From positions 1-64,000 of the IMG/VR virus record IMGVR_UViG_2974791771_000001: DNA of 64,000 bases; one strand, given 5' to 3'. The position numbers and the translations under genes were made by a program. Numbering within the stretch: position 1 is the stretch's first letter; each line of letters begins with the position of its first letter. The notes under the pieces were generated by a model. It ran no database searches. It worked only from the letters and a program-made list of their open reading frames with translations, and was not told the DNA's origin. This document shows, one piece after another, positions 49,595-60,700 of the stretch. Origin of the DNA: a virus (Duplodnaviria > Caudoviricetes).

Positions 49595-50031
49595 TGAAGA
49601 AAACTGTTGCGGCGGTGTTGATTGCTGCGGTGGCCGGGTTGGGCTTGACGGCCTGCCACAGTGACGATGATTACGAGGATGTGAGCGCGGTCTGCGTCGA
49701 TCCCGCCACGAACGTCCGTCTCGATGATGACGAGTGTGACGACGATGATGGCCCTTCGGTGTGGTGGTACTACGGTGCCGGTGCTGCTGTTCCGGCTGTC
49801 GGGTATGCGGTGGCGAAGAACTCGGGGTCGTTCAAAAAACCTGCTCGTGCTCACATCCGGAAGGTGCCGCGCGTGGGTCAGGCGAAGCCTTCGGTGGTGA
49901 AGCCGCGTACGGCGTCGGCTCCGAAGCCCACGCAGAACAACAAGTCGTGGTTCGGTTCCAAGTCTTCGGGTTCGGGTTCGAAGTCGTCTTCTTCGGGTTC
50001 TCGGTCGGGAGGGTTCTCGCGTGGCCGCTGA
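49594..50031 (+). CDS. Lipoprotein with Ser/Gly-rich basic tail
   Basis: Lipobox LTAC; SSGSGSKSSSSGSRSGGFSRG. Confidence 0.75.
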   Translation: MKKTVAAVLIAAVAGLGLTACHSDDDYEDVSAVCVDPATNVRLDDDECDDDDGPSVWWYYGAGAAVPAVGYAVAKNSGSFKKPARAHIRKVPRVGQAKPSVVKPRTASAPKPTQNNKSWFGSKSSGSGSKSSSSGSRSGGFSRGR

Positions 50032-50941
50032 GCTAGTTGCCATGCGGGGCCTCCCCGCGTCAGGGAAGACCACCCGTGCACGGCAGATCGCGAAAGAGAC
50101 CGGCGCTGTTGTTGTGGGCCGGGACTTCGAACGCTTCCAGATGTTCGGCGAGTGGTGGACGGGCAAGCCTGAGCATGAGGATGCTGTCACGGTCGCCCTG
50201 AATGCCAAGGTGCGAGCCTTGCTGAAGGCGAATCAATCTGTGGTGGTTGACAACACGCACATTCAGGTCAGGTACCTGAAGGATTGGGCGAAGGTCGCTT
50301 CGGAGTGCGGGGCCACGTTCCGGATCGAAGATGTGAAGACTCCGCAGGATGTGTGCGAGGAACGCGACTTCTGGCGGGAGGGCGCGGGTGAACGGTTCGT
50401 CGGCCCTGAGGTGATTGCCCGGATGGCGAAGCAGATCAACTGGGGAATACCGAAGCCGGTAGCGCCCATCGTCGTTGAGCCCGTTGACCACAAGGTTGCC
50501 GAAGAGCTGATGCTTCCCGGCGCGATCATCGTGGACATCGACGGCACGCTCGCGCACATGACTGGCCGTAGCCCGTACGACTACAGCCGCGTCGGCGAAG
50601 ATCGGGTTGACCCCACCATCGCCAGAATGGTCCGGGAGTACGAACAACTCGGCTACGACATCATCGCGTGCTCGGGCCGGGACGACGAGTGCCGCACCAT
50701 GACTGTCGCATGGCTGCTCGCCAACGACATCCCGTTCCACAAGCTGCTCATGCGGCCCACCGACGCCAAGGATGCCAACGGCAACAAACTGCCCGACTGG
50801 ATCGTCAAGTACAACCTGTTCAACGAGAATGTGCGCGGCAAGTACGACGTGGAATTCGTTCTCGATGACCGCAACCAGGTTGTGGACATGTGGCGCAAGC
50901 TCGGCCTGAAGTGCTTGCAGGTTGCTCCCGGCGACTTCTGA
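50021..50941 (+). CDS. pnk: Polynucleotide 5'-kinase/3'-phosphatase (T4 PseT-like)
   Basis: P-loop GLPASGKTT; HAD DIDGT, SGR, DDR. Confidence 0.92.
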   Translation: MAAELVAMRGLPASGKTTRARQIAKETGAVVVGRDFERFQMFGEWWTGKPEHEDAVTVALNAKVRALLKANQSVVVDNTHIQVRYLKDWAKVASECGATFRIEDVKTPQDVCEERDFWREGAGERFVGPEVIARMAKQINWGIPKPVAPIVVEPVDHKVAEELMLPGAIIVDIDGTLAHMTGRSPYDYSRVGEDRVDPTIARMVREYEQLGYDIIACSGRDDECRTMTVAWLLANDIPFHKLLMRPTDAKDANGNKLPDWIVKYNLFNENVRGKYDVEFVLDDRNQVVDMWRKLGLKCLQVAPGDF

Positions 50942-51111
50942 TGTACGTCCCACCTGATCGTCCAGCACTCGAATGCCAAGCGTGCGGAACGGTATTGCAA
51001 GCCCTCACAGATGAGCAGGCCGCTGATGTCGCGCTCAATCCGTACAACTACATCGCCTTCTGTGCTCCGTGTAAGCGCAAGGGCTATCACATAGAACCAG
51101 GATTTCAATGA
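50941..51111 (+). CDS. Small Zn-finger protein
   Basis: CQAC...CAPC. Confidence 0.6.
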   Translation: MYVPPDRPALECQACGTVLQALTDEQAADVALNPYNYIAFCAPCKRKGYHIEPGFQ

Positions 51112-52427
51112 CCAACAGTCTCTCTGTTGTCGGCAGCAGCAACTACGCCGCACAGATCGTCCGCGTCCCCGCCACCTACCCGCTCGAAGGTCTCGACAAC
51201 CTCGTGGGCATCAAGGTTTTCAACAGCCAAATCCTCACGCAGAAGAACGAAGTCGAAGCGGGAGACCTCCGCATCTACTTCCCCGCAGAGGTTCGACTCT
51301 CCGACAAGTACCTGTCGGTCAACAACCTGTTCCGGGATCCGTTGCTCAACCGGGACAGCAAGGCCGCACCCGGCTACTTCGAAACCAACGGTCGAGTCAA
51401 GGCGATCAAGCTGCGCGGGCACCGTTCCGACGGCCTGCTGATGCCGCTCGATTCCCTGCTCGCATTCGGCGTTCGCAGTGAGGATTTGGTTGAGGGTGCC
51501 GTGTTCGACACGGTGAACGGGATTGAGATTTCCCGCAAGTATGAGGTGAAGACCTCGACGCCGGCCGACCCTTCCGCGAAGAAGGTGAAGAAGGCGTTCA
51601 AGCGGGTCACCACGAAGGTGTTCCCTGAGCACATCGACACCGATAACTTCTTCCGCAACCAGCATTTGCTTGACCCGTCGCGCGAGGTCATCATCACCCA
51701 GAAGCTTCACGGCACGAGCATTCGTGTGGGTCGAGTCCCGGTGCTGCGGGAGATCGGTCTGGTGGAGCGCATCTTCAACAAGGTGGGTGGCCTGTTCGGC
51801 ATCTCCACGCCGACTCACGCCTACGAGGTGGTGTGCGGTTCGCGGAAGGTCATCAAGGATGTGACGAACCCTCGTAGCCAGCACTACTACGGCACGGACA
51901 TCTGGTCGCAGTACGGCATTCAGATCGGTGACCTGATCCCTGAGGGCTTCATTGTGTACGGCGAGCTGGTCGGTTGGACGCCGGACGGCAAGCCGATCCA
52001 GAAGAACTACACCTACGATCTGCCGGTTGGTAAGCGCGAGCTGTACGTGTACCGGGTGGCTCGTGTGGATGTGAATGGCACGATGACTGATCTGTCGTGG
52101 GATGCGGTGCGCGAGTTCTGCGTTGAGCGCGGCCTGAAGCATGTGCCTGAGCTGTACCGGATCATCGAAGAGGATGAACTGTTCGGCGACAAGCTCGAAG
52201 ACCACGTGACGGCCCTGATGGACATTGCGTTCACCGACTACGCGGAAGACAACGTGCATCGGGATCCGCTGGTGCCGCTGTCCGATCCGAACACGGTCGA
52301 TGAGGGTGTCTGCATCCGCCAGGAACGTTCCGTTCCGACGATCCTCAAGGCGAAGTCGCCTGCGTTCCTTGAGCACGAAACCAAGCAGCTCGACACGGGC
52401 GAGGCCGACCTCGAAAGCGCAGCCTGA
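51108..52427 (+). CDS. rnl: RNA ligase, Rnl2/DRB0094-like
   Basis: Motif I TQKLHGTS, III YGELVG, IV EGVCIR, V LKAKS; N-terminal OB/tRNA-binding-like domain. Confidence 0.9.
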   Translation: MTNSLSVVGSSNYAAQIVRVPATYPLEGLDNLVGIKVFNSQILTQKNEVEAGDLRIYFPAEVRLSDKYLSVNNLFRDPLLNRDSKAAPGYFETNGRVKAIKLRGHRSDGLLMPLDSLLAFGVRSEDLVEGAVFDTVNGIEISRKYEVKTSTPADPSAKKVKKAFKRVTTKVFPEHIDTDNFFRNQHLLDPSREVIITQKLHGTSIRVGRVPVLREIGLVERIFNKVGGLFGISTPTHAYEVVCGSRKVIKDVTNPRSQHYYGTDIWSQYGIQIGDLIPEGFIVYGELVGWTPDGKPIQKNYTYDLPVGKRELYVYRVARVDVNGTMTDLSWDAVREFCVERGLKHVPELYRIIEEDELFGDKLEDHVTALMDIAFTDYAEDNVHRDPLVPLSDPNTVDEGVCIRQERSVPTILKAKSPAFLEHETKQLDTGEADLESAA

Positions 52428-52619
52428 ATGCAGAACGGACAATCCCAGTGTTACGTCGCTTTCCCTAGCGAGCACTTCGATGTGGAGTCCTTGCGCTTCG
52501 CGTATGACCAGCTCATTGGCATGGGCGTCCCCAGAACCCGGAAGCTCACCATCGAATCTGTACCCAAGGTGGGCGATGAGATGTGTGACGGAATCGCATT
52601 TGTGGAGGTAGTTCCATGA
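52428..52619 (+). CDS. Hypothetical protein
   Basis: Coupled ORF. Confidence 0.55.
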   Translation: MQNGQSQCYVAFPSEHFDVESLRFAYDQLIGMGVPRTRKLTIESVPKVGDEMCDGIAFVEVVP

Positions 52620-53467
52620 CAGTTCATCTCTATGCAGCCGACCTCACCGACAGGTCGAAACCACTCATCAACGTGCAACGCTTCCAGTTCCCTGGCGGCG
52701 AACAGCACCTCCACATGCCCGCGCTCATCGACGGCCACAACTACGAATGGGTGGCCGTAGTCCGGGGTGCCGACGCCAACGAGCTGGTGGCCGCTGGCCT
52801 GCTCTCGGACATCGCCTACCAGCGCGGCGAACCCTCATCTCTCCTGTTGCCGTATCTTCCGGCTGCACGAGCTGATCGGGGCCAGCCGTTCGCGCTCGAC
52901 ACCTACGCGAATGTCATTGGTGCGCTGAACTTCGATGTGGTCACCACGCTCGACGTGCACAGTCAGGTCGGCATTGACATCGAGTTCGGGGACTCGTATC
53001 ACGTGCACCTGTCGGCCACTCCCCTCGTTCTTGCGGCGGTGGAGCATCAGGACAAGTTTGATGCGGTGATCGCGCCGGACGCTGGCGCTCTTGACCGTGC
53101 GCGGTCTGTGGCCCTGGCCCTGCGGGTGCCCGTGTACAGCGGCGTGAAGGAACGGGACTTCGCGACCGGGAAGCTCACCAGCTTCTACTACTCGGGTCCG
53201 ACCAACGGCAATTTCCTTGTGGTCGATGACATCTGTGATGGCGGCGGCACGTTCGCCGGTTTCGCTGCGGTGTCGGGGATCCCTCGCGAGAACCTGTCGT
53301 TGTGGATCACGCATGGCATCTTCTCGAAGGGGTCTGCGTCGAATCTGTTCCGCAATTACAAGGCTGTGTATACGACGGATTCGCATCCGGGTTCGGCGAA
53401 TCTTCATGCGACTGTTCGTGTGCCGGTTGTGCCGCACATGTGGAAGCACGTAGCAGGAGGTCTGTGA
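52616..53467 (+). CDS. Ribose-phosphate pyrophosphokinase-like protein (candidate Adps of NARP1)
   Basis: FPGGEQH, LPYLPAARADR, DVHS, APDAGA, VVDDICDGGGTF. Confidence 0.85.
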   Translation: MTVHLYAADLTDRSKPLINVQRFQFPGGEQHLHMPALIDGHNYEWVAVVRGADANELVAAGLLSDIAYQRGEPSSLLLPYLPAARADRGQPFALDTYANVIGALNFDVVTTLDVHSQVGIDIEFGDSYHVHLSATPLVLAAVEHQDKFDAVIAPDAGALDRARSVALALRVPVYSGVKERDFATGKLTSFYYSGPTNGNFLVVDDICDGGGTFAGFAAVSGIPRENLSLWITHGIFSKGSASNLFRNYKAVYTTDSHPGSANLHATVRVPVVPHMWKHVAGGL

Positions 53468-53685
53468 TGGGTCGGATGCAAGTCAAGGATGCGGAGTCCA
53501 CCAAGCGCGTTCTTTCTATGGCCGACGATCAGTCGAAGTTGATCCTAACGGAAACGCTGGGATCTGGCGTTGCGGTCATAGAGGTTGCCGGTAGTTCCTA
53601 CAGTGCGTACGCCAGCATTGTGCTCGACAAAGAGTCCGCAGTCATTCTCGGTGAACGCCTCATCGAATTCGGAAGCCAACCCTGA
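53467..53685 (+). CDS. Hypothetical protein between the PRS-like and Nampt-like genes
   Basis: TGATG coupling. Confidence 0.6.
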   Translation: MGRMQVKDAESTKRVLSMADDQSKLILTETLGSGVAVIEVAGSSYSAYASIVLDKESAVILGERLIEFGSQP

Positions 53686-53693
53686 AAGGGACC

Positions 53694-55169
53694 ATGACCA
53701 AGTTTGCGCCCGTAGCGGCACTCTTCCAAACCGACGCCTACAAGCTCGGCCACATCCAGCAATACCAGCTCGCCGGAAACGTCACCCGCGTCTACAGCAA
53801 CTACACCAACCGCAAGAGCCGCATCCCCGGCGTCGACAACGTGGTGCACTTCGGCCTTCAGGCGTTCATCCAGAAGAACCTCATGGAAGCGTTTGAGCCG
53901 TTCTTTGAGTCCGATGAGGATGTTGTTGCCGAACTGTACGAAGAGCGCGTAGCGAGCATCCTGGGGCCGAACACGATCGGTTCCGATCACATCCGCGCCC
54001 TGCACCGACTCGGCTACCTGCCGCTGCGGTTCTGCGCGGTCCCGGAAGGCACCCTCGTGCCCATCCGGATCCCCACATTCACGGTGGAAAACACTCTGCC
54101 TGAGTTCTTCTGGCTGACCAACTACATCGAGACCGCGTTGTCGGCTGGCGTGTGGCAGGCGAGCACGTCCGCAACCATCGCCCGCGAGTACCGACAGATC
54201 CTCGACGTTGCGGCATGGGAGACGGGCAGCAGTTTCGATGCTGTCGACTTCCAGGTCCACGACTTCAGCTACCGGGGGATGAGTTCGAATGAGTCTGCCC
54301 AGGTTTCGGGTGCGGCGCACCTTCTTTCGTTCTCCGGGACAGACTCTCTCGTCGCTCTCGATTGGATTGACCGCTACTACGGAGGTTCGGATTACGTTGC
54401 GGCGTCGGTCCCCGCGACAGAGCACAGTGTCATGTGCACCGGCATTGCCAAGCTCGGTGAACAGGATATGTTCGCCAAGCTTCTCGACCTGTATCCGACC
54501 GGCATTGTGTCCATCGTCTCGGACACCTTCGACCTGTGGCGGGTACTGACTGAGTACCTTCCCGCGCTGAAGGACAAGGTTCTCGCCCGCGACGGCAAGC
54601 TGGTGATCCGTCCGGACTCGGGCGACCCGCAGAAGATCATCTGTGGCGACCCGGACGCCCCTGAGGGCAGCAACGAGTACCTGGGCGTGATCGGTCTGCT
54701 GGATCGCGTGTTCGGCTCCACCCCGAACAAGCTGGGCTACTACGAGCTGGACTCGCACGTCGGCATCATTTACGGCGATTCGATCACAACGGAGCGCGCT
54801 CAGGCCATCGTTGACGATCTCGCTTCGCAGAACTACGCCAGCACCAACGTGGTGTTCGGCGTGGGCAGCTTCACTTACCAGTACAACACCCGCGACACCT
54901 TCGGCTCGGCGCTGAAGGCTACGTGGGCTGAGGTGGACGGTGAGGGCGTGAACCTGCTCAAGGACCCCATCACTGACGACGGCACGAAGAAGTCGGCTAC
55001 GGGCCGTCTGGCGGTCGATTTGGATGGTGATGGTGAGTGGACGCTGATTGAGAAGGCCAGCCAGGACGAAGAGGCACTGAGCCTGCTTCAGCCTGTGTGG
55101 GAGAACGGCGAGTTCGTCACGCGTCAGACCTTCCAGGACGTGAGGGAAACGCTCGCACTCTGGGGGTGA
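53694..55169 (+). CDS. Nicotinamide phosphoribosyltransferase-like protein (candidate Namat of NARP1)
   Basis: TDAYKLGH, HDFSYRG, ATEHSV, SIVSDTFD, RPDSGDP, YGDSIT, KKSATG. Confidence 0.92.
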   Translation: MTKFAPVAALFQTDAYKLGHIQQYQLAGNVTRVYSNYTNRKSRIPGVDNVVHFGLQAFIQKNLMEAFEPFFESDEDVVAELYEERVASILGPNTIGSDHIRALHRLGYLPLRFCAVPEGTLVPIRIPTFTVENTLPEFFWLTNYIETALSAGVWQASTSATIAREYRQILDVAAWETGSSFDAVDFQVHDFSYRGMSSNESAQVSGAAHLLSFSGTDSLVALDWIDRYYGGSDYVAASVPATEHSVMCTGIAKLGEQDMFAKLLDLYPTGIVSIVSDTFDLWRVLTEYLPALKDKVLARDGKLVIRPDSGDPQKIICGDPDAPEGSNEYLGVIGLLDRVFGSTPNKLGYYELDSHVGIIYGDSITTERAQAIVDDLASQNYASTNVVFGVGSFTYQYNTRDTFGSALKATWAEVDGEGVNLLKDPITDDGTKKSATGRLAVDLDGDGEWTLIEKASQDEEALSLLQPVWENGEFVTRQTFQDVRETLALWG

Positions 55170-55174
55170 CCTGA

Positions 55175-55561
55175 TTGGCGATCGACTACACCAAACCTGA
55201 GCGCACGAAAATCTCGTACAAGAAGATTCGTGTGCCGAACAGGTCGATGGCCCCACGCTTCGAGGCAATCAAGCCGTGCCCGAAGTGTGGGGCCTGGCGG
55301 GTCCACTGGATGCGTGAACCCAACCCGGATGTGCCCAACCTCGTCAACTTCTACGGCGAGTTTGTGTGCAGGGCCGACGATCCCGACGCTGAACGCATCA
55401 TCAAAGAGAACCGTCTTGAACGAGAGATAGTCGGGTGGGGAATGGTGCGCACAGTCCGCACAGTCTATGACGAGTCAGTCCGACCCGATCGTGACGACGA
55501 ACGCGGCTTCGAGGTGATCCGCCAATGCGTTGACTGCAAACACGAATGGGGAGAAATCTGA
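55175..55561 (+). CDS. Hypothetical Zn-ribbon protein
   Basis: CPKC..H, CVDC..W. Confidence 0.6.
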   Translation: MAIDYTKPERTKISYKKIRVPNRSMAPRFEAIKPCPKCGAWRVHWMREPNPDVPNLVNFYGEFVCRADDPDAERIIKENRLEREIVGWGMVRTVRTVYDESVRPDRDDERGFEVIRQCVDCKHEWGEI

Positions 55562-56391
55562 ACACAACCAGACAGATCGCATACGACAACCTGATGATGC
55601 TCGGCGTAGCCGGATCGCAGCTCTACGGCACCAACCTGGACAACGGCGACAACGACCAGATGGGCGTCTGCCTAGAGCCACCCGCCTACGTGACCGGCCT
55701 GTTCACCTTCGAGCAGTACCAGTACCATTCCGCCGGCAAGGATACTCGTTCCGGCGCAGACGATCTCGACCTCACTATCTACAGTCTGCGCAAGTGGGCG
55801 CGACTCGCAGCAGCAGGCAATCCCACGGTACTCCTGCTGGGTTTCACGCCGAAGCGACTCCTGCTGCACGACAGCGTGGATGGCCGAATCCTTCGAAACC
55901 ACATGGACAAGTTCATGTCCCGCCAAGCCGCAGGCAAGTTCTATGGCTACCTGGAATCGCAGCGCAAACAGATGCTCGGTCTCACCGGACGCAAGCACAG
56001 CAATCGTCCAGAACTCATCGAGCAGTACGGCTTCGACACCAAGTTCGCCTACCACGCAGTGCGACTCGGAATGCAAGGCGTCGAGTATCTGACCACCGGG
56101 CACATGACGCTGCCGATGCGCGACGAGGAACGCAACTACCTCATCGACATCCGGCAAGGCCGCGAGTCCTTCGAAGATGTGGTGACCGTCATCAACCTGT
56201 ACCAAGGGTTGCTGCTCAAACTGATGCGCTCCACTGATCTGCCGCCGCGTGCGGACTACGACTGGATCAACTCGTGGCTCACCGACACCTACATTACTCA
56301 CTGGGAACGCGAGGGGGTGGGTACTGACCTCTTGGCTAGACGAAGCTTCGGCAAGTCGATTCATAGGGCGTCACATCCGAACCCTGCGTAG
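55546..56391 (+). CDS. Pol-beta superfamily nucleotidyltransferase (RlaP/YcgL-like)
   Basis: GSQLYG..DNDQMG; GNPTVL; KFAYHAVRL. Confidence 0.85.
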   Translation: MGRNLNTTRQIAYDNLMMLGVAGSQLYGTNLDNGDNDQMGVCLEPPAYVTGLFTFEQYQYHSAGKDTRSGADDLDLTIYSLRKWARLAAAGNPTVLLLGFTPKRLLLHDSVDGRILRNHMDKFMSRQAAGKFYGYLESQRKQMLGLTGRKHSNRPELIEQYGFDTKFAYHAVRLGMQGVEYLTTGHMTLPMRDEERNYLIDIRQGRESFEDVVTVINLYQGLLLKLMRSTDLPPRADYDWINSWLTDTYITHWEREGVGTDLLARRSFGKSIHRASHPNPA

Positions 56392-56572: not shown

Positions 56573-56717
56573 CTACGACCGTGCAGTGCACATTGTGGCC
56601 GAATCGGTCGCGGGTCGAGAGCCCACGGCCGACGATCTGAACCGGGCTGAGAAGCTGATCGCAGTGTTCTACAGTCTGGTGGAATCGCGGCTAATACCGT
56701 GTCCCCCCGGGGAGTAA
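56517..56717 (+). CDS. Hypothetical protein
   Basis: ORF track; start uncertain. Confidence 0.45.
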   Translation: MDDHSSTPPSPETWIPSSDYDRAVHIVAESVAGREPTADDLNRAEKLIAVFYSLVESRLIPCPPGE

Positions 56718-56780
56718 TGTTGTAAGTGAATCGGGGTTGAGAGAGCGCCCAAGACATTGAACGGCGTTCTTCACCCTGGA

Positions 56781-56847
56781 CTGATCGTCAGATGGGACAT
56801 CTGCAGAGGTTTTGTAGGGTGCGCGGGTTCGAGTCCCGCCGATCAGA
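56781..56847 (+). ncRNA. tRNA-like element without a canonical anticodon arm
   Basis: CTGATCG/CGATCAG 7-bp acceptor; GCGGG-TTCGAGT-CCCGC T arm; CAGATG/CATCTG hairpin. Confidence 0.6.
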
Positions 56848-56855
56848 CGGGCGCA

Positions 56856-56959
56856 GATGCGTAGATTGTGGTTACTTCACTAATTGGATATGCAGGTTCA
56901 AGTCCTGCCGTCGGGGTGTAAAGTTACCCGACGTTTGTTCCACGATCGACCAAGTTCAC
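56856..56959 (+). ncRNA. Y-RNA-like unit A1 (T-arm containing)
   Basis: GATGCGTAG..GTTACTTC 5' motif; GCAGG-TTCAAGT-CCTGC; CGTCGGG/CCCGACG; 3' CAAGTTCAC. Confidence 0.7.
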
Positions 56960-56979
56960 TCGCGCCAACAACCACCCCA

Positions 56980-57042
56980 GATGCGAAGGCTGCACAGTTA
57001 CTTCAATTGGATGAAACGCACACTGTGTGCCATCCAGTTCCC
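56980..57042 (+). ncRNA. Y-RNA-like unit B1 (short)
   Basis: GATGCGAAG..GTTACTTCAA..GATGAAAC..CAGTTCCC. Confidence 0.65.
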
Positions 57043-57064
57043 TGGGGTTACATCTTCACGTTCA

Positions 57065-57247
57065 GATGCGTAGAGACGTTGGTTACTTCCATTTTAAGGA
57101 CGAGGTTGCGGGTTCGAATCCCGCCTGCGCTATGTTTACCCGAAGGTAGGGCCTGGCATAAAGGCCAGTGGTGGGGTTCGAATCCCCGGCTGTGACGGTA
57201 GCTCAATTGGCAGAGCGCGTAAAAACACCAACACTCGGCAAGTTCCC
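57065..57247 (+). ncRNA. Y-RNA-like unit A2 (YrlA-like permuted tRNA mimic with two T arms)
   Basis: GATGCGTAG..GTTACTTC; T arms at 57108-57124 and 57173-57187; D arm GCTC-AATTGGCA-GAGC after the T arm; 3' CAAGTTCCC. Confidence 0.75.
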
Positions 57248-57270
57248 TGAACGATCAAACATTCCGCCGT

Positions 57271-57339
57271 GATGCGAAGCAAGAACGTTACTTCAACTGC
57301 TGATAGATGAAACCCACACGTTCATGCGCCACAGTTCAC
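57271..57339 (+). ncRNA. Y-RNA-like unit B2 (short)
   Basis: GATGCGAAG..GTTACTTCAA..GATGAAAC..CAGTTCAC; GAACGT/ACGTTC stem. Confidence 0.65.
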
Positions 57340-57371
57340 ACGGCACAATTCAACACACAGGAGCAGAAGGA

Positions 57372-58970
57372 ATGTCGCGCTACAACACCGCCACCAAGGC
57401 CCGACCCGCACAAAAGTCGAGCGCCATCAAGGCAGGTACGAAGCCCAAAACCAACCCACAGGGTGGAACCGGATTCAAGCGCGGCGACGCCAAGTCCGAA
57501 CTGTTCCTTTCCGCTGCAACCTCATTCATGCAGCCCAAATTCTACGAAACCGAGAACGATCTCCGCACGCGACAGCGCAAGCTCATCGCCAAGGTGGCCG
57601 TCTCCGACCCGGAGTGGACCTTCGAGTTCCTGACATGGCTCCGCACCGAAGGCAACCTGCGCACCGGGTCGCTCACCCTGGCCGCTGACGCCGTTTATGA
57701 GCGCCTGAAGGCGGGTAGGTACGAGCACGGCTGGAACCGTGCGATCATCTCCACGGTCCTGCGCCGGCCGGACGAGCCTGGCGAAATGCTTGCCTACTGG
57801 ACCAGCAACTACGGTCGCAACGTGCCGATCTCGGTCAAGCGTGGCATCGCGGATGTCATCGAGGGACAGTACAACGAGCGCAACTTTCTGAAGTACGACA
57901 GTGCCTCTCGCGCCTTCCGGTTCGGTGATGTGATCGAGCTGACCCATCCGAAGATGACGGGCAGCCGGGGTGATCTCGCCTCGTATGCGATCACTGTGGG
58001 TAAGGGCCGTGACGCCGAGATTCCTGATTCTCTGCCGATGATTCGAGAGAATCGCTCACTCCGCGCCACGGGCCTGAGCCCGAAGGTTCGCAAGTTGATC
58101 GCGGATCGAGGTGGCGACCTCTCCCAGGTTCTTGCTGCTGCTGGTATGACGTGGGAAGACATCCCCTCACTCGTCAACGGCCCCTGGACCCCCGAACTGT
58201 GGGAAGCCGCCATCCCCAACATGGGAGTCATGGCGCTCATGCGCAACCTCCGCAACTTCGACCAGGTCGGCATCTCCAAGCAAGCCGCAAAGATGGTCCG
58301 AGACAAACTGTCCGACCGTGAAGCCGTCCTCAAGTCCCGCATCCTTCCCCTCCGCGCACTCAGCGCCTACAAGGCCGTCAGCAACTCCCGCTGGCACGGC
58401 GCACTCGAAGACGCGGTGGACATCACCCTGGACAACGTTCCCGCCCTGAAGGGCCGCACGCTGATCCTCGTGGACTGCTCGGGATCGATGTTCTTCAGCA
58501 ACGGCACCGACCTGAGCTACGCGGAGTCGGCAGCCGTGTTCGGCACCGCGCTCGCCGCCAAGGCTGACAATGCGACTCTCGTGCACTACGGGTCGAACTC
58601 GCGTGAGGTCAAGGTGCCTCGTGGAGCTTCGGTGTTGGAGATGGCCCGCTCGGTGCACAGCATGGGTGGTACGGCCACCGCAGAGGCGATCCAGGCCCAC
58701 TACAACGGCCACGATCGAGTGATCCTGCTGACCGACGAGCAGCACAATGGTGGAGGCTACGGATGGGGCTCACGCTACGTGTCGGCGAGCCCTGGCGACT
58801 ATGTGCCCAAGCACATCCCGCTCATCACCTTCAACCTCGCCGGATACAAACTCGGCGGCGTCAAAGACGAACCCAACCGGCTCACCTTCTCGTCCCTCTC
58901 GGACAGTGCATGGAAGCTGGTCGACATGTTCGGCAACGGCGCAACCGGATGGCCCTGGGAGGCTAAGTGA
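57372..58970 (+). CDS. rsr: Ro60/Rsr TROVE-domain RNA-binding protein with vWA domain
   Basis: ELFL...FYE, RTEGNLRT, MGVMALMRNLRNF, SRILPLR, MIDAS DCSGS, LTDEQ. Confidence 0.92.
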   Translation: MSRYNTATKARPAQKSSAIKAGTKPKTNPQGGTGFKRGDAKSELFLSAATSFMQPKFYETENDLRTRQRKLIAKVAVSDPEWTFEFLTWLRTEGNLRTGSLTLAADAVYERLKAGRYEHGWNRAIISTVLRRPDEPGEMLAYWTSNYGRNVPISVKRGIADVIEGQYNERNFLKYDSASRAFRFGDVIELTHPKMTGSRGDLASYAITVGKGRDAEIPDSLPMIRENRSLRATGLSPKVRKLIADRGGDLSQVLAAAGMTWEDIPSLVNGPWTPELWEAAIPNMGVMALMRNLRNFDQVGISKQAAKMVRDKLSDREAVLKSRILPLRALSAYKAVSNSRWHGALEDAVDITLDNVPALKGRTLILVDCSGSMFFSNGTDLSYAESAAVFGTALAAKADNATLVHYGSNSREVKVPRGASVLEMARSVHSMGGTATAEAIQAHYNGHDRVILLTDEQHNGGGYGWGSRYVSASPGDYVPKHIPLITFNLAGYKLGGVKDEPNRLTFSSLSDSAWKLVDMFGNGATGWPWEAK

Positions 58971-59981: not shown

Positions 59982-60118
59982 CGGCTGATAGTCCAATGGA
60001 GCGGTCCTCACATATCGAACTAGCGGGCGTGCACGCCGACGGCTAGCGAATTTCTGTGAAGGGTCCAGGACGCCCCAAATGGTGGAGGAAATGCGGGTTC
60101 GAATCCCGCGAGGCCGAC
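59982..60118 (+). ncRNA. tRNA-like RNA with about 70-nt structured insertion in the D loop
   Basis: CGGCT/GGCCG acceptor-like; GTCC/GGAC D stem; GCGGG-TTCGAAT-CCCGC; anticodon unclear. Confidence 0.5.
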
Positions 60119-60191
60119 CGTGCCCGACTGTGCACGTAAACAGTCCGCAGACGACAATCGGCAGGAACACTGCGGTATCAAAAGTTCCCAC

Positions 60192-60265
60192 CCCATGTAG
60201 CGTTGGTGTAGAGAGCACACTGGTGTGCAAAGCCAGAGGCGTGGGTGCAATTCCTGCACGTGTAC
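60192..60265 (+). tRNA. tRNA-Cys(GCA), degenerate acceptor and D arm
   Basis: CTGGT-GTGCAAA-GCCAG; T loop TGCAATT. Confidence 0.55.
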
Positions 60266-60267
60266 TT

Positions 60268-60340
60268 GCCTTAGAAACCGAATTGGCTAGGTGCCTGACT
60301 TCCAATCAGGATTTTGCGGGTTCGAGTCCCGTCTAAGGCT
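60268..60340 (+). tRNA. tRNA-Gly(TCC)
   Basis: GCCTTAG/CTAAGGC; CCTGA-CTTCCAA-TCAGG; canonical T arm. Confidence 0.9.
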
Positions 60341-60438
60341 CAATGGGACGCCAGAGATAAACACTGGTGCGGTCGAAGCTGACCCGATTCAGAAACCCGC
60401 CGATTCCCGATCACAGGCCGACTGTATAACCGGATCCT

Positions 60439-60551: not shown

Positions 60552-60625
60552 CTCTCCGTAGCTCAGATGGTCAGAGCAGGGCACTCTTAATGCTCGGGTC
60601 GCAGGTTCGAATCCTGCCGGGGAGA
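60552..60625 (+). tRNA. tRNA-Lys(CTT)
   Basis: CTCTCCG/CGGGGAG; GGGCA-CTCTTAA-TGCTC. Confidence 0.93.
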
Positions 60626-60700
60626 CGGCCCTCCTGTTGGGGTTATACGTCAGATCGCTACTGACACAACAGGCCATCAGGTCGGCCTACCTGATGGAAA

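What the first reader, a model, noticed from the sequence alone, without database searches (positions are those of the whole stretch)
56781..58970. Alternating A-B-A-B array of Y-RNA-like tRNA mimics directly upstream of a phage Ro60/TROVE gene
Seen: four units start with GATGCG(T/A)AG-N-GTTACTTC (56856, 56980, 57065, 57271) and end with (C/A)AGTTC(A/C)C (near 56951, 57035, 57239, 57332). Their 5' and 3' parts pair: GATTGTGG/CCACGATC, GCACAG/CTGTGTGC, GTTGG/CCAAC and GAACGT/ACGTTC. Two classes alternate. Long units start GATGCGTAG and carry T arms; short units start GATGCGAAG and share TTACTTCAA..GATGAAAC. A separate tRNA-like element precedes them (56781-56847). Established: bacterial Ro60 (Rsr) binds adjacent Y RNAs, and YrlA mimics tRNA. 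Inference: a phage-encoded multi-Y-RNA cassette with two RNA classes, possibly tethers or decoys for host tRNA-targeting nucleases. The two-class tandem architecture may be undescribed.
Basis: partly seen in the sequence, partly recalled or inferred. Interest (0 to 1): 0.88.

Follow-up and report, generated by a model that had tools for sequence, protein, structure and literature searches.

The report
Phage Y-RNA array before Ro60
A Gordonia phage carries four small structured RNAs of the known bacterial Y-RNA type, two with tRNA-like parts and two short ones, packed directly in front of its Ro60 gene. This is a good, unannotated example of an arrangement that turns out to be common in phages and bacteria of this group, not a new kind of system.

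Summary
Four units with the composite motif ATGCGWAG-N5-12-TTACTTC lie at 56850-57344, against 0 expected by chance. A tRNA-like element precedes them (56781-56847), and a TROVE+vWA Ro60 gene follows (57372-58970).

My covariance models give these scores:
- u2: 74 bits; u4: 50 bits. Both belong to a short class of about 71 nt.
- u3: 71 bits. It is YrlA-type (T arm, acceptor-like arm, D arm) with a 68-nt insert.
- u1: 44.5 bits. It is the same type but has no D arm.

Both classes show strong covariation in relatives (93-96% of cells paired, against 72-78% in shuffles).

This is a Y-RNA cassette, but the two-class layout is not new. YrlA plus YrlB upstream of rsr is published for M. smegmatis and Salmonella, and Yrl1/Yrl2 for Thermus phage phiLo. 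In 79 Ro60 loci from viral contigs I found arrays of 1-6 mixed units, including S-L-S-L orders. Mycobacteriales chromosomes carry them too.

The decoy idea is untested and no RNA data exist. Verdict: new member of a known kind, with useful annotation corrections and moderate-to-low interest.

The parts
56700..56780 (+). Conserved non-coding leader, possibly promoter and 5' leader of the array. It contains a GC-rich palindrome followed by TAATGT at 56715-56720.
   Evidence: It is 97% identical to phage Trax over 56708-56767, while the flanking coding DNA is 77-83% identical. A similar palindrome plus GTAATGT precedes the arrays of Streptomyces phages Satis and Frankenweenie (sequence). The sigma-70 consensus scan found no promoter. 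The promoter role is inference only.
56781..56847 (+). tRNA-like leader element. It has a 7-bp acceptor stem, one central hairpin, a T arm and a discriminator A. It has no anticodon arm.
   Evidence: Fold: -25.8 kcal/mol, z -2.2. Neither ARAGORN nor the Rfam tRNA model calls it. In Trax the acceptor stem keeps pairing through a change on both strands, and the central hairpin is replaced by a different hairpin. It ends 2 nt before u1.
56850..56966 (+). Unit 1, long Y RNA. It has an outer stem, the 5' loop AUGCGUAG, an inner stem and GUUACUUC. Its T arm is at 56892-56908 and its 7-bp acceptor-like arm at 56909-56933. It has no D arm.
   Evidence: Long-unit model R3: 44.5 bits, E 3e-8 over the whole window, full length, with the D-arm segment deleted. 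Short-unit model R2: 18 bits with a local end over the inner module. In Trax the acceptor-like hairpin has a different sequence at the same place.
56975..57047 (+). Unit 2, short Y RNA (YrlB-like). Its parts are outer stem CCCCAG/CUGGGG, 5' loop AUGCGAAGG, an inner stem, GUUACUUC and a small UUCA/UGAA hairpin.
   Evidence: R2: 74.1 bits, E 2e-15. R2 was seeded from this unit, so the score is partly by construction. The independent support is the family covariation.
57059..57253 (+). Unit 3, long YrlA-type Y RNA. Its T arm is at 57108-57124. The acceptor-like arm is expanded by about 68 nt and holds a second T-arm-like hairpin at 57173-57187. Its D arm is at 57201-57216. The outer stem is CGUUCAG/CUGAACG.
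   Evidence: Rfam YrlA RF02553: 31.5 bits, E 1e-4, full model, below the gathering score of 69. R3: 71.3 bits, E 3e-14. The Trax ortholog was in the R3 seed, so this score is partly by construction.
57266..57344 (+). Unit 4, short Y RNA (YrlB-like). Its parts are outer stem GCCGUG/CACGGC, 5' loop AUGCGAAG, inner stem GAACGU/ACGUUC and a terminal hairpin.
   Evidence: R2: 50.3 bits, E 2.6e-9. R1, built from unit 2 only: 37.5 bits.
57372..58970 (+). Ro60/Rsr ortholog (TROVE ring plus vWA domain with a MIDAS motif), 532 aa. The ribosome-binding site AGGAG is at 57359-57363. There is no terminator between unit 4 and the start codon.
   Evidence: Pfam TROVE E 3.4e-16; VWA_2 23.4 bits, below its cut-off of 27. 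PHROG 850, RNA-binding protein, E 2e-41. Solved relatives: phage phiLo Ro60 9KOP E 2e-21 and D. radiodurans Rsr 2NVO E 3e-5. D368, S370, S372, T434 and D455 are invariant in 8 phage orthologs.

Best explanation
The stretch 56781-57344 is a polycistronic array of non-coding RNAs of the bacterial Y-RNA family, placed directly upstream of the phage's Ro60 gene.

The array holds five elements:
- a tRNA-like leader;
- a long unit with a T arm and an acceptor-like arm (u1);
- a short unit (u2);
- a long YrlA-type unit with T, expanded acceptor-like and D arms (u3);
- a second short unit (u4).

Shown: the anatomy, membership of two structured RNA families that covary, and the constant position upstream of Ro60.

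Inferred mechanism:
1. The array is transcribed as one precursor from a promoter near 56700-56730. Because only 27 nt and no terminator separate u4 from the start codon, transcription probably continues into Ro60.
2. RNase P and RNase Z cut at the tRNA-like leader, and other nucleases trim each unit back to its own outer stem. The four different stem sequences keep the units from mispairing.
3. Each mature unit binds a Ro60 ring through the conserved 5' loop AUGCG(A/U)AG. This loop is the counterpart of GGUCCGA in animals and GNCGAA in bacteria.
4. The variable inner modules give the Ro60 particles different partners. The tRNA-like modules of u1 and u3 engage tRNA-handling proteins or PNPase. 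The short units act as plain gates or adaptors.
5. The likely task during infection is RNA quality control, repair or degradation, working with the neighbouring Pnk-phosphatase, RNA ligase, RlaP nucleotidyltransferase and tRNA genes.
For: Motif and structure in the window:
- The composite motif occurs 4 times against 0 expected.
- Each unit has a different but complementary outer and inner stem.

Fit to Rfam and to my own models:
- Rfam YrlA hits u3. It also hits the equivalent place upstream of Ro60 in 7 other phages and in 13 of the 19 Mycobacteriales loci searched.
- A model built from unit 2 alone found 67 full-length matches in viral-contig Ro60 loci. All are on the Ro60 strand, and almost all lie upstream of the gene.

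Covariation in relatives:
- On the short-unit alignment, 92.7% of cells pair against 72.4% in shuffles. There are 186 two-sided changes against 49, and slid controls reach at most 51%.
- On a MAFFT alignment of 28 long units, which is not fitted to any structure, 96.4% pair against 78.1%. There are 145 two-sided changes against 41, and all 7 pairs of the acceptor-like arm covary.
- R3 scores u3 at 71.3 bits and u1 at 44.5 bits. It scores the mycobacteriophage ET08 locus, whose YrlA is published, at 67.9 bits.

Comparison with Trax:
- Stems and motifs are 95-100% identical, while the inner modules carry indels of 14, 23, 25 and 6 nt.

Processing and context:
- Real tRNA genes abut Y units in 7 viral loci. 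They also directly precede the arrays in bacterial loci L097 and L104. This supports tRNA-type processing.
- The Ro60 identity is secure.
[quoted passage not shown] Phage phiLo Ro60 binds two upstream Y-like RNAs and forms a complex with host PNPase (PMC12135203).
- The neighbourhood holds Pnk-phosphatase, RNA ligase, NAMPT-like and RlaP genes.
Against: - No expression, RNA-end or binding data exist for this phage or its relatives.
- The Rfam YrlA score of 31.5 bits is well below the gathering score of 69.
- The 5' motif departs from the published GNCGAAN0-1G: UGCGAAG in the short units and UGCGUAG in the long ones.
- The 3' loop (CAAGUUC) differs from the family consensus (UUGAUCU), so the exact Ro60-binding helix cannot be drawn with confidence.
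- u1 lacks the D arm that defines the YrlA tRNA-like module.
- Scores for u2 (models R1 and R2) and u3 (model R3) are partly circular, because the unit itself or its Trax ortholog seeded the models.
- The consensus scan found no promoter.
- Co-transcription with Ro60, the processing route and the partners are all inference.
Confidence: 0.85

Rival explanations
1. The array acts mainly in cis, as a structured 5' leader of the Ro60 mRNA. Ro60 would bind unit 4, or the whole array, to control its own translation or mRNA stability. The units would not be released as stable trans-acting RNAs.
For: Only 27 nt and no terminator-like hairpin separate unit 4 from the Ro60 start codon in the window and in Trax. 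The ribosome-binding site lies 15 nt after the outer stem of unit 4.
Against: In VanLee and Satis a strong terminator-like hairpin separates the last unit from Ro60. A similar hairpin followed by a T run is visible in BRock, GiJojo and Frankenweenie. The same RNA family is therefore an independent transcription unit there. In M. smegmatis, RNAs in this position accumulate as discrete Ro60-bound species (PMC4201824). The two roles do not exclude each other.
Confidence: 0.07
2. The region is a run of decayed tRNA genes or tRNA fragments next to the phage tRNA cluster, with no tie to Ro60.
For: There are four T-arm-like hairpins and one perfect D arm. A true tRNA cluster lies 1.3 kb downstream. 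In related phages, annotators called overlapping stretches tRNA-Arg or tRNA-Pro.
Against: The order T arm then D arm is permuted relative to tRNA. No anticodon arms are present, and neither ARAGORN nor Rfam tRNA calls anything here. The non-tRNA features (outer and inner stems, 5' loop, GUUACUUC) are the most conserved parts and they covary. The short units have no tRNA feature at all. The family lies upstream of Ro60 in about 80 loci.
Confidence: 0.03
3. The region encodes small proteins, as annotated in phage Trax (genes 91-93, hypothetical proteins).
For: Open frames of 93 and 103 codons overlap the array. GenBank records of Trax and Neville carry such genes.
Against: The similarity of Trax gene 93 to the window is split between two reading frames, because the indels are not multiples of three. 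Genes 91 and 92, separate in Trax, fall into one frame in the window. The peptides read like translated T arms. The conservation pattern follows RNA stems, not codons.
Confidence: 0.02

Closest known systems
Mycobacterium smegmatis YrlA and YrlB (Chen et al. 2014, PMC4201824)
   Same: A long Y RNA with a tRNA-like module (T arm, 7-bp acceptor-like stem) and a shorter second Y RNA. Both are encoded upstream of rsr on the same strand and cut from one precursor. Hosts are of the same bacterial order. The published probe sequences share the UUAC..CUUC segment with the window's GUUACUUC.
   Different: The window has four units plus a tRNA-like leader instead of two. One long unit lacks the D arm and the other has a 68-nt expansion. 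It is encoded by a lytic-type phage. I could not fetch the M. smegmatis locus to align it directly.
Thermus phage phiLo Ro60 with Yrl1 and Yrl2 (PMC12135203, structures 9KOP and 9L5Y)
   Same: A phage Ro60 with Y-like RNAs directly upstream, each a stem, internal loop and stem with a CGAA-type motif. This protein is the closest solved relative of the window's Ro60 (E 2e-21).
   Different: phiLo has two units, and no tRNA-like modules are reported. Binding and PNPase recruitment are shown there and untested here.
Rfam YrlA (RF02553), including the YrlA of mycobacteriophage ET08
   Same: Unit 3 aligns over the whole model: closing stems, T arm, variable arm, D arm. The ET08 locus scores 37.4 bits with Rfam and 67.9 bits with my long-unit model.
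   Different: All matches from actinobacteria and their phages fall below the Rfam gathering score (25-47 bits against 69). Standard annotation therefore misses them.
Salmonella Typhimurium rsr-yrlBA-rtcBA operon
   Same: Two Y RNA classes lie beside Ro60 and are linked to RNA repair genes (ligase, end-healing enzymes).
   Different: The repair partners differ: RtcB and RtcA under RtcR control there; Pnk-phosphatase, an Rnl-type ligase and RlaP here. There are two RNAs there, not four, and the locus is chromosomal.
tRNA-like processing elements (for example mascRNA at the MALAT1 3' end) and tRNA-punctuated transcripts
   Same: The leader at 56781-56847 has only the acceptor stem and T arm that RNase P and RNase Z need, and it abuts the next RNA. 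The weak Rfam match to mascRNA-menRNA (15.2 bits, E 6.2) reflects this shape only.
   Different: There is no homology, and cleavage is not shown.

Membership tests
Bacterial/phage Y RNA, YrlA subfamily (Chen et al. 2014; Rfam RF02553) | Encoded within 4 kb of a Ro60 ortholog, on the same strand | tested here: met
   The units end 27 nt before the Ro60 start, on the same strand.
Bacterial/phage Y RNA, YrlA subfamily (Chen et al. 2014; Rfam RF02553) | 5' motif GNCGAAN0-1G, the presumed Ro60 contact | tested here: inconclusive
   The short units have UGCGAAG (6 of 7 positions) and the long units UGCGUAG (5 of 7). The family consensus from relatives is GGUGCG(A/C)AGG.
Bacterial/phage Y RNA, YrlA subfamily (Chen et al. 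2014; Rfam RF02553) | tRNA-like module in permuted order: T arm, acceptor-like stem-loop, D arm | tested here: met
   Met by unit 3. Unit 1 has the T arm and a 7-bp acceptor-like arm but no D arm, so it is a reduced form.
Bacterial/phage Y RNA, YrlA subfamily (Chen et al. 2014; Rfam RF02553) | 5' and 3' ends pair into a stem interrupted by a conserved internal loop | tested here: met
   Outer and inner stems are present in all four units. They covary in relatives.
Bacterial/phage Y RNA, YrlA subfamily (Chen et al. 2014; Rfam RF02553) | Score at or above the Rfam gathering threshold (69 bits) | tested here: not met
   31.5 bits. All actinobacterial and actinophage relatives also fail, including the ET08 locus whose YrlA is published. 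The threshold reflects the seed, not the biology.
Bacterial/phage Y RNA, YrlA subfamily (Chen et al. 2014; Rfam RF02553) | Bound by Ro60, and carries tRNA-type modifications | not testable with these tools
   Needs RIP, EMSA and modification mapping.
Short second Y RNA (YrlB type) | A short stem-loop RNA next to YrlA and rsr that shares the 5' motif and lacks the full tRNA-like module | tested here: met
   Units 2 and 4 are 73 and 79 nt. R2 gives 74 and 50 bits. In relatives the short class has a median length of 71 nt, and 1 of 100 carries a T-loop motif.
Short second Y RNA (YrlB type) | Sequence homology to the validated YrlB of M. smegmatis or S. Typhimurium | not tested
   Neither locus could be fetched. 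Probe-derived patterns were not found in my loci or in the 401 genomes sampled.
Ro60 / Rsr protein | TROVE (HEAT-repeat ring) domain followed by a vWA domain with MIDAS residues | tested here: met
   TROVE E 3.4e-16; VWA_2 23.4 bits, below its cut-off. D-x-S-x-S, T and D are invariant in 8 orthologs. 9KOP E 2e-21 and 2NVO E 3e-5.
Canonical tRNA (for the leader 56781-56847) | Cloverleaf with D arm and anticodon arm, recognised by tRNA finders | tested here: not met
   ARAGORN makes no call. Rfam tRNA gives no match at the gathering score, and only the T arm scores. The fold shows an acceptor stem, one hairpin and a T arm.

The most novel reading that the evidence does not exclude
The array is a set of different adaptors, and its tRNA-like parts are working tRNA mimics during infection. 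These parts are the leader, unit 1's T arm plus 7-bp acceptor-like arm, and unit 3's doubled T arm. RNase P would cut them and CCA would be added. They would then serve as decoys or sensors for host tRNA-cleaving defence nucleases, or would recruit Ro60 particles to damaged tRNAs for the adjacent Pnk, RNA ligase and RlaP repair enzymes. On this reading, the growth of arrays to 4-6 or more units in actinophages is an arms-race diversification of Y-RNA effector modules.
Probability: 0.12. Interest if true: 0.75.

Novelty: new member of a known kind. Interest (0 to 1): 0.35.

Why it matters
It gives a clean, well-bounded example of a phage Ro60/Y-RNA locus, with exact unit limits and two covariance-supported RNA classes.

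At family level it shows four things:
- Actinophage and Mycobacteriales Ro60 genes are usually preceded by tightly packed arrays of long and short Y RNAs.
- These arrays are often fused to tRNA genes or tRNA-like elements.
- The curated Rfam model misses them.
- Public phage records annotate them wrongly, as hypothetical proteins or as tRNAs.

The locus sits in an RNA-repair, tRNA and NAD-salvage island. It would therefore be a convenient system for asking what phage Ro60 particles do during infection. It does not reveal a new kind of system.

Tried and rejected
- Rfam at gathering thresholds found only tRNAs in the window.
- A MAFFT alignment of 11 short units was structurally inconsistent, and RNAalifold returned no pairs. 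I replaced it with model-based alignment.
- A regular-expression census of GTTACTTC anchors was too crude. I replaced it with the model-based census.
- The idea that U or A in the 5' motif marks long against short units fails in relatives: long units have C 48, A 18, T 4; short units have A 35, C 32, T 6.
- The promoter consensus scan found nothing. A BLAST of the leader against the window found no repeated promoter-like box, only T-arm matches.
- The genome-contig scan with the protein alignment failed. With the single protein it gave one locus, from Tsukamurella soli.
- Patterns derived from the published M. smegmatis YrlA and YrlB probes were not found in my loci or in the 401 sampled genomes of the family. 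A direct alignment to the validated RNAs was therefore not possible.
- The Annual Review on bacterial Ro60 and the supplementary tables of Chen et al. 2014 are not held. I could not check whether multi-unit phage arrays are already tabulated there.
- Sequencing runs: no RNA holder listed. No reads were laid.
- R2 cannot align unit 3, which is too long for the model.
- The R3 match at 60582-60666 (26.8 bits) spans the T arm of tRNA-Lys and the next spacer. This is the dimeric-tRNA type of false positive that Chen et al. warn about.
- No complex prediction was sent, because the tool takes protein partners only.
Full report
WHAT THE WINDOW IS. The window comes from a Gordonia phage. Its nearest public relatives are phages Trax and Neville (Deeyouvirinae, host Gordonia terrae). 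They are 80.5% identical in DNA over 56700-57380 and 90.5% identical in the Ro60 protein. The gene at 57372-58970 is a Ro60/Rsr ortholog:
- Pfam TROVE E 3.4e-16, plus a vWA domain just under its cut-off.
- PHROG 850.
- The closest solved structures are the Ro60 of Thermus phage phiLo (9KOP, E 2e-21) and D. radiodurans Rsr.
- The MIDAS residues are invariant in eight phage orthologs.

CHECK OF THE OBSERVATION. The four units are real and not chance. The composite pattern ATGCGWAG-N5-12-TTACTTC occurs four times in 64 kb, all between 56857 and 57294 on the + strand, with none in 100 shuffles.

It lies 6-7 nt outside the GATGCG motif and differs in sequence from unit to unit:
- u1: GGCGCAG with CUcGCGCC
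- u2: CCCCAG with CUGGGG
- u3: CGUUCAG with CUGAACG
- u4: GCCGUG with CACGGC

The true limits are 56850-56966, 56975-57047, 57059-57253 and 57266-57344. The spacers are 8-12 nt. The tRNA-like element ends 2 nt before u1, and 27 nt separate u4 from the Ro60 start.

WHAT THE UNITS ARE. Rfam at curated thresholds finds nothing here. A sensitive scan aligns unit 3 to the whole YrlA model (31.5 bits, E 1e-4): closing stems, T arm, a variable arm with a long insert, then a D arm. T arm before D arm is the YrlA signature.

The same sub-threshold YrlA hit lies upstream of Ro60 in seven other phages: Trax, VanLee, GiJojo, BRock, Frankenweenie, Satis and mycobacteriophage ET08. Reading those loci shows 3-5 units each, all with a (G)GUUAC(U/C)UC box or a close variant. 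Long units (T and D arms) and short units are mixed in orders such as S-L-L-S, L-S-S-L, S-L-L and S-L-S.

SHORT CLASS. I built a covariance model from unit 2 and its Trax ortholog, with a hand-drawn structure. I searched it against the window, seven phage loci and 79 Ro60 loci from IMG/VR viral contigs.
- It found 67 full-length matches, all on the Ro60 strand and almost all upstream of the gene.
- On that alignment 92.7% of cells pair, against 72.4% in shuffles. There are 186 cells with changes on both sides against 49, and controls with slid partners reach at most 51%. The alignment is fitted to the model, so the figures lean towards the structure, but the margin is large.
- A second model built from these matches found 215 hits, both short and long.
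- It scores unit 2 at 74 bits, unit 4 at 50 bits and unit 1 at 18 bits, the last with the inner module skipped.

LONG CLASS. A plain MAFFT alignment of 28 long units, not fitted to any structure, gave an RNAalifold consensus of outer stem, internal loop, inner stem, T arm, 7-bp acceptor-like arm and D arm.
- 96.4% of cells pair, against 78.1% in shuffles. There are 145 two-sided changes against 41, and every pair of the acceptor-like arm covaries.
- The model from this alignment scores unit 3 at 71.3 bits, with a 68-nt insert in the acceptor-like arm.
- It scores unit 1 at 44.5 bits, with the T arm and 7-bp acceptor-like arm present and the D arm deleted.
- The Trax ortholog of unit 3 was in the seed, so that score is partly by construction. 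Unit 1 was not in the seed.
- The same model scores the ET08 locus, whose YrlA is published, at 67.9 bits. It also scores two long units each in VanLee, BRock and GiJojo.

So the window holds two long YrlA-type units, one reduced and one expanded, and two short units. The A-B-A-B description is right as to length class, but the two A units differ in build.

HOW COMMON THE LAYOUT IS. Seventy-nine distinct loci had matches at E up to 0.01. Units per locus were 1 (22 loci), 2 (31), 3 (17), 4 (4), 5 (1) and 6 (4).
- Lengths are bimodal: medians of 71 and 134 nt.
- A T-loop motif is present in 70 of 80 long units and 1 of 100 short units.
- The median gap between units is 20 nt.
- These counts are lower bounds, because the model misses divergent long units, including those of the window.
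- Orders include S-L (the commonest), S-L-L, S-L-S-L, S-L-S-L-L and S-L-L-S-L-L.
- At looser thresholds one locus (L055) shows eight units.

Chromosomal or prophage Ro60 loci of Mycobacteriales carry the same family. Nineteen of 201 sampled genomes have a TROVE gene, and their loci hold up to five R2 hits on the Ro60 strand, in L101 and L095. The window's four-unit L-S-L-S array is therefore at the upper end of a common pattern and is not a new architecture. The U or A in the 5' motif that separates the classes in this phage is not a general rule.

COMPARISON WITH TRAX. Stems, 5' loops and the GUUACUUC boxes are 95-100% identical, more than the flanking genes at 65-92%. The inner modules differ by indels of 14, 23, 25 and 6 nt. 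The acceptor-like hairpin of unit 1 has another sequence in Trax, and the 68-nt insert of unit 3 is absent there. This is the pattern expected of a constant Ro60-binding frame with variable effector modules.

The same comparison rules out coding. The similarity of Trax gene 93 is split between two frames in the window, and genes 91 and 92 merge into one frame.

THE tRNA-LIKE LEADER. The stretch 56781-56847 folds into a 7-bp acceptor stem, one hairpin and a T arm. No tRNA finder calls it. In Trax the acceptor stem changes on both strands and still pairs, and the middle hairpin is replaced by a different one.

In other loci, genuine tRNA genes abut Y units. The distance from the tRNA end to the GUUACUUC box is 23-25 nt in five viral loci. 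In bacterial loci L097 and L104 a tRNA ends 6 and 31 nt before the first unit. I read the leader as a processing handle for RNase P and RNase Z. This is inference.

TRANSCRIPTION. VanLee and Satis have a strong terminator-like hairpin between the last unit and Ro60. BRock, GiJojo and Frankenweenie show a similar hairpin and T run in the sequence. The window and Trax have none. Here the array probably also forms the leader of the Ro60 mRNA, which leaves room for a cis role.

The stretch 56708-56767 is 97% identical to Trax. It carries a GC-rich palindrome followed by TAATGT, as in Satis and Frankenweenie. The consensus scan found no promoter.

CONTEXT. Upstream on the same strand lie a Pnk-phosphatase (50021-50941), an RNA ligase (51108-52427), a phosphoribosyltransferase-like gene, a NAMPT-like gene (53694-55169) and an RlaP nucleotidyltransferase (55546-56391). 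Downstream lie a primase-polymerase and a tRNA cluster. Ro60 with a tRNA-like partner and RlaP have both been discussed as parts of phage RNA repair (PMC7824862).

WHAT IS KNOWN ALREADY.
- Chen et al. 2014 (PMC4201824) reported YrlA-like RNAs near Ro60 in 254 bacteria and 22 phages. They showed that M. smegmatis YrlA and YrlB lie upstream of rsr and come from one precursor. [quoted passage not shown]
- The 2025 phiLo study (PMC12135203) showed a phage Ro60 binding two upstream Y-like RNAs and forming a complex with host PNPase.
- A Listeria phage study suggested that three abundant RNAs upstream of an Rsr-like gene may be Y RNAs (PMC12282133).

In the papers I could read, I did not find the size and make-up of arrays in actinophages, the D-arm-less and expanded long units, or the direct tRNA junctions described. 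I could not see the supplementary tables of Chen et al. or the 2020 Annual Review.

VERDICT. This is a real, well-supported Y-RNA array and a new member of a known kind. Function rests on analogy, and no expression or binding data are available (see Tried and rejected). The same stretch was also noted by this scan in an overlapping window (e1-5923890).

Noticed in passing
L002:2204-2275 (VanLee), L003:2269-2343 (GiJojo), L005:2245-2335 (Frankenweenie): These GenBank records annotate tRNA-Arg(tct), tRNA-Arg(cct) and a 91-nt tRNA-Pro(tgg) over stretches that my long-unit model scores as Y RNAs (97.9, 60.5 and 70.8 bits). The Rfam tRNA model is below its threshold there (26.9 and 24.1 bits, and no match). 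These are probably Y RNAs miscalled as tRNAs.
   Followed up: partly
L001:4099-4509 (Trax genes 91-93) and the equivalent genes of Neville: Three 'hypothetical protein' genes are annotated on top of the Y-RNA array. Their frames are not kept in the window, and the peptides read like translated T arms.
   Followed up: yes
L055:1444-2379, L056:1641-2452, L071:748-2266, L072:1163-2452 (IMG/VR contigs): Ro60 loci with six to eight Y-RNA units upstream, mixing short and long classes. These are much larger arrays than the two RNAs per locus described in the papers I could read.
   Followed up: partly
window 50021-56391: Co-oriented block of Pnk-phosphatase, RNA ligase, phosphoribosyltransferase-like, NAMPT-like and RlaP nucleotidyltransferase genes directly upstream of the array. 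Together with Ro60 and the tRNA cluster it forms an RNA-repair and NAD-salvage island.
   Followed up: partly
window 59982-60260 and 60120-60190: Structured non-tRNA stretches lie among the tRNA genes. They include a T arm at 60093-60109 and a partial tRNA match at 60201-60260. The stretch 60120-60190 ends in AAAGTTCCC, like the 3' motif of the Y units. My Y-RNA models do not support a fifth unit there: the only hits are the bare T arm at 60093-60109 and a 14-bit hit at 60285-60419.
   Followed up: partly
L004:1921-1949 (BRock): A promoter-like TTGACA-17-GATACT overlaps the start of the first Y unit. Its second hexamer lies inside the conserved (G)AUACUUC box. This is probably coincidence, but each BRock and GiJojo unit is preceded by a similar ACTTCA/ACTTGA word.
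   Followed up: no
(all actinobacterial and actinophage loci): Every YrlA match in these taxa scores 25-47 bits against the Rfam gathering score of 69. The curated model does not annotate this large branch of the family.
   Followed up: yes
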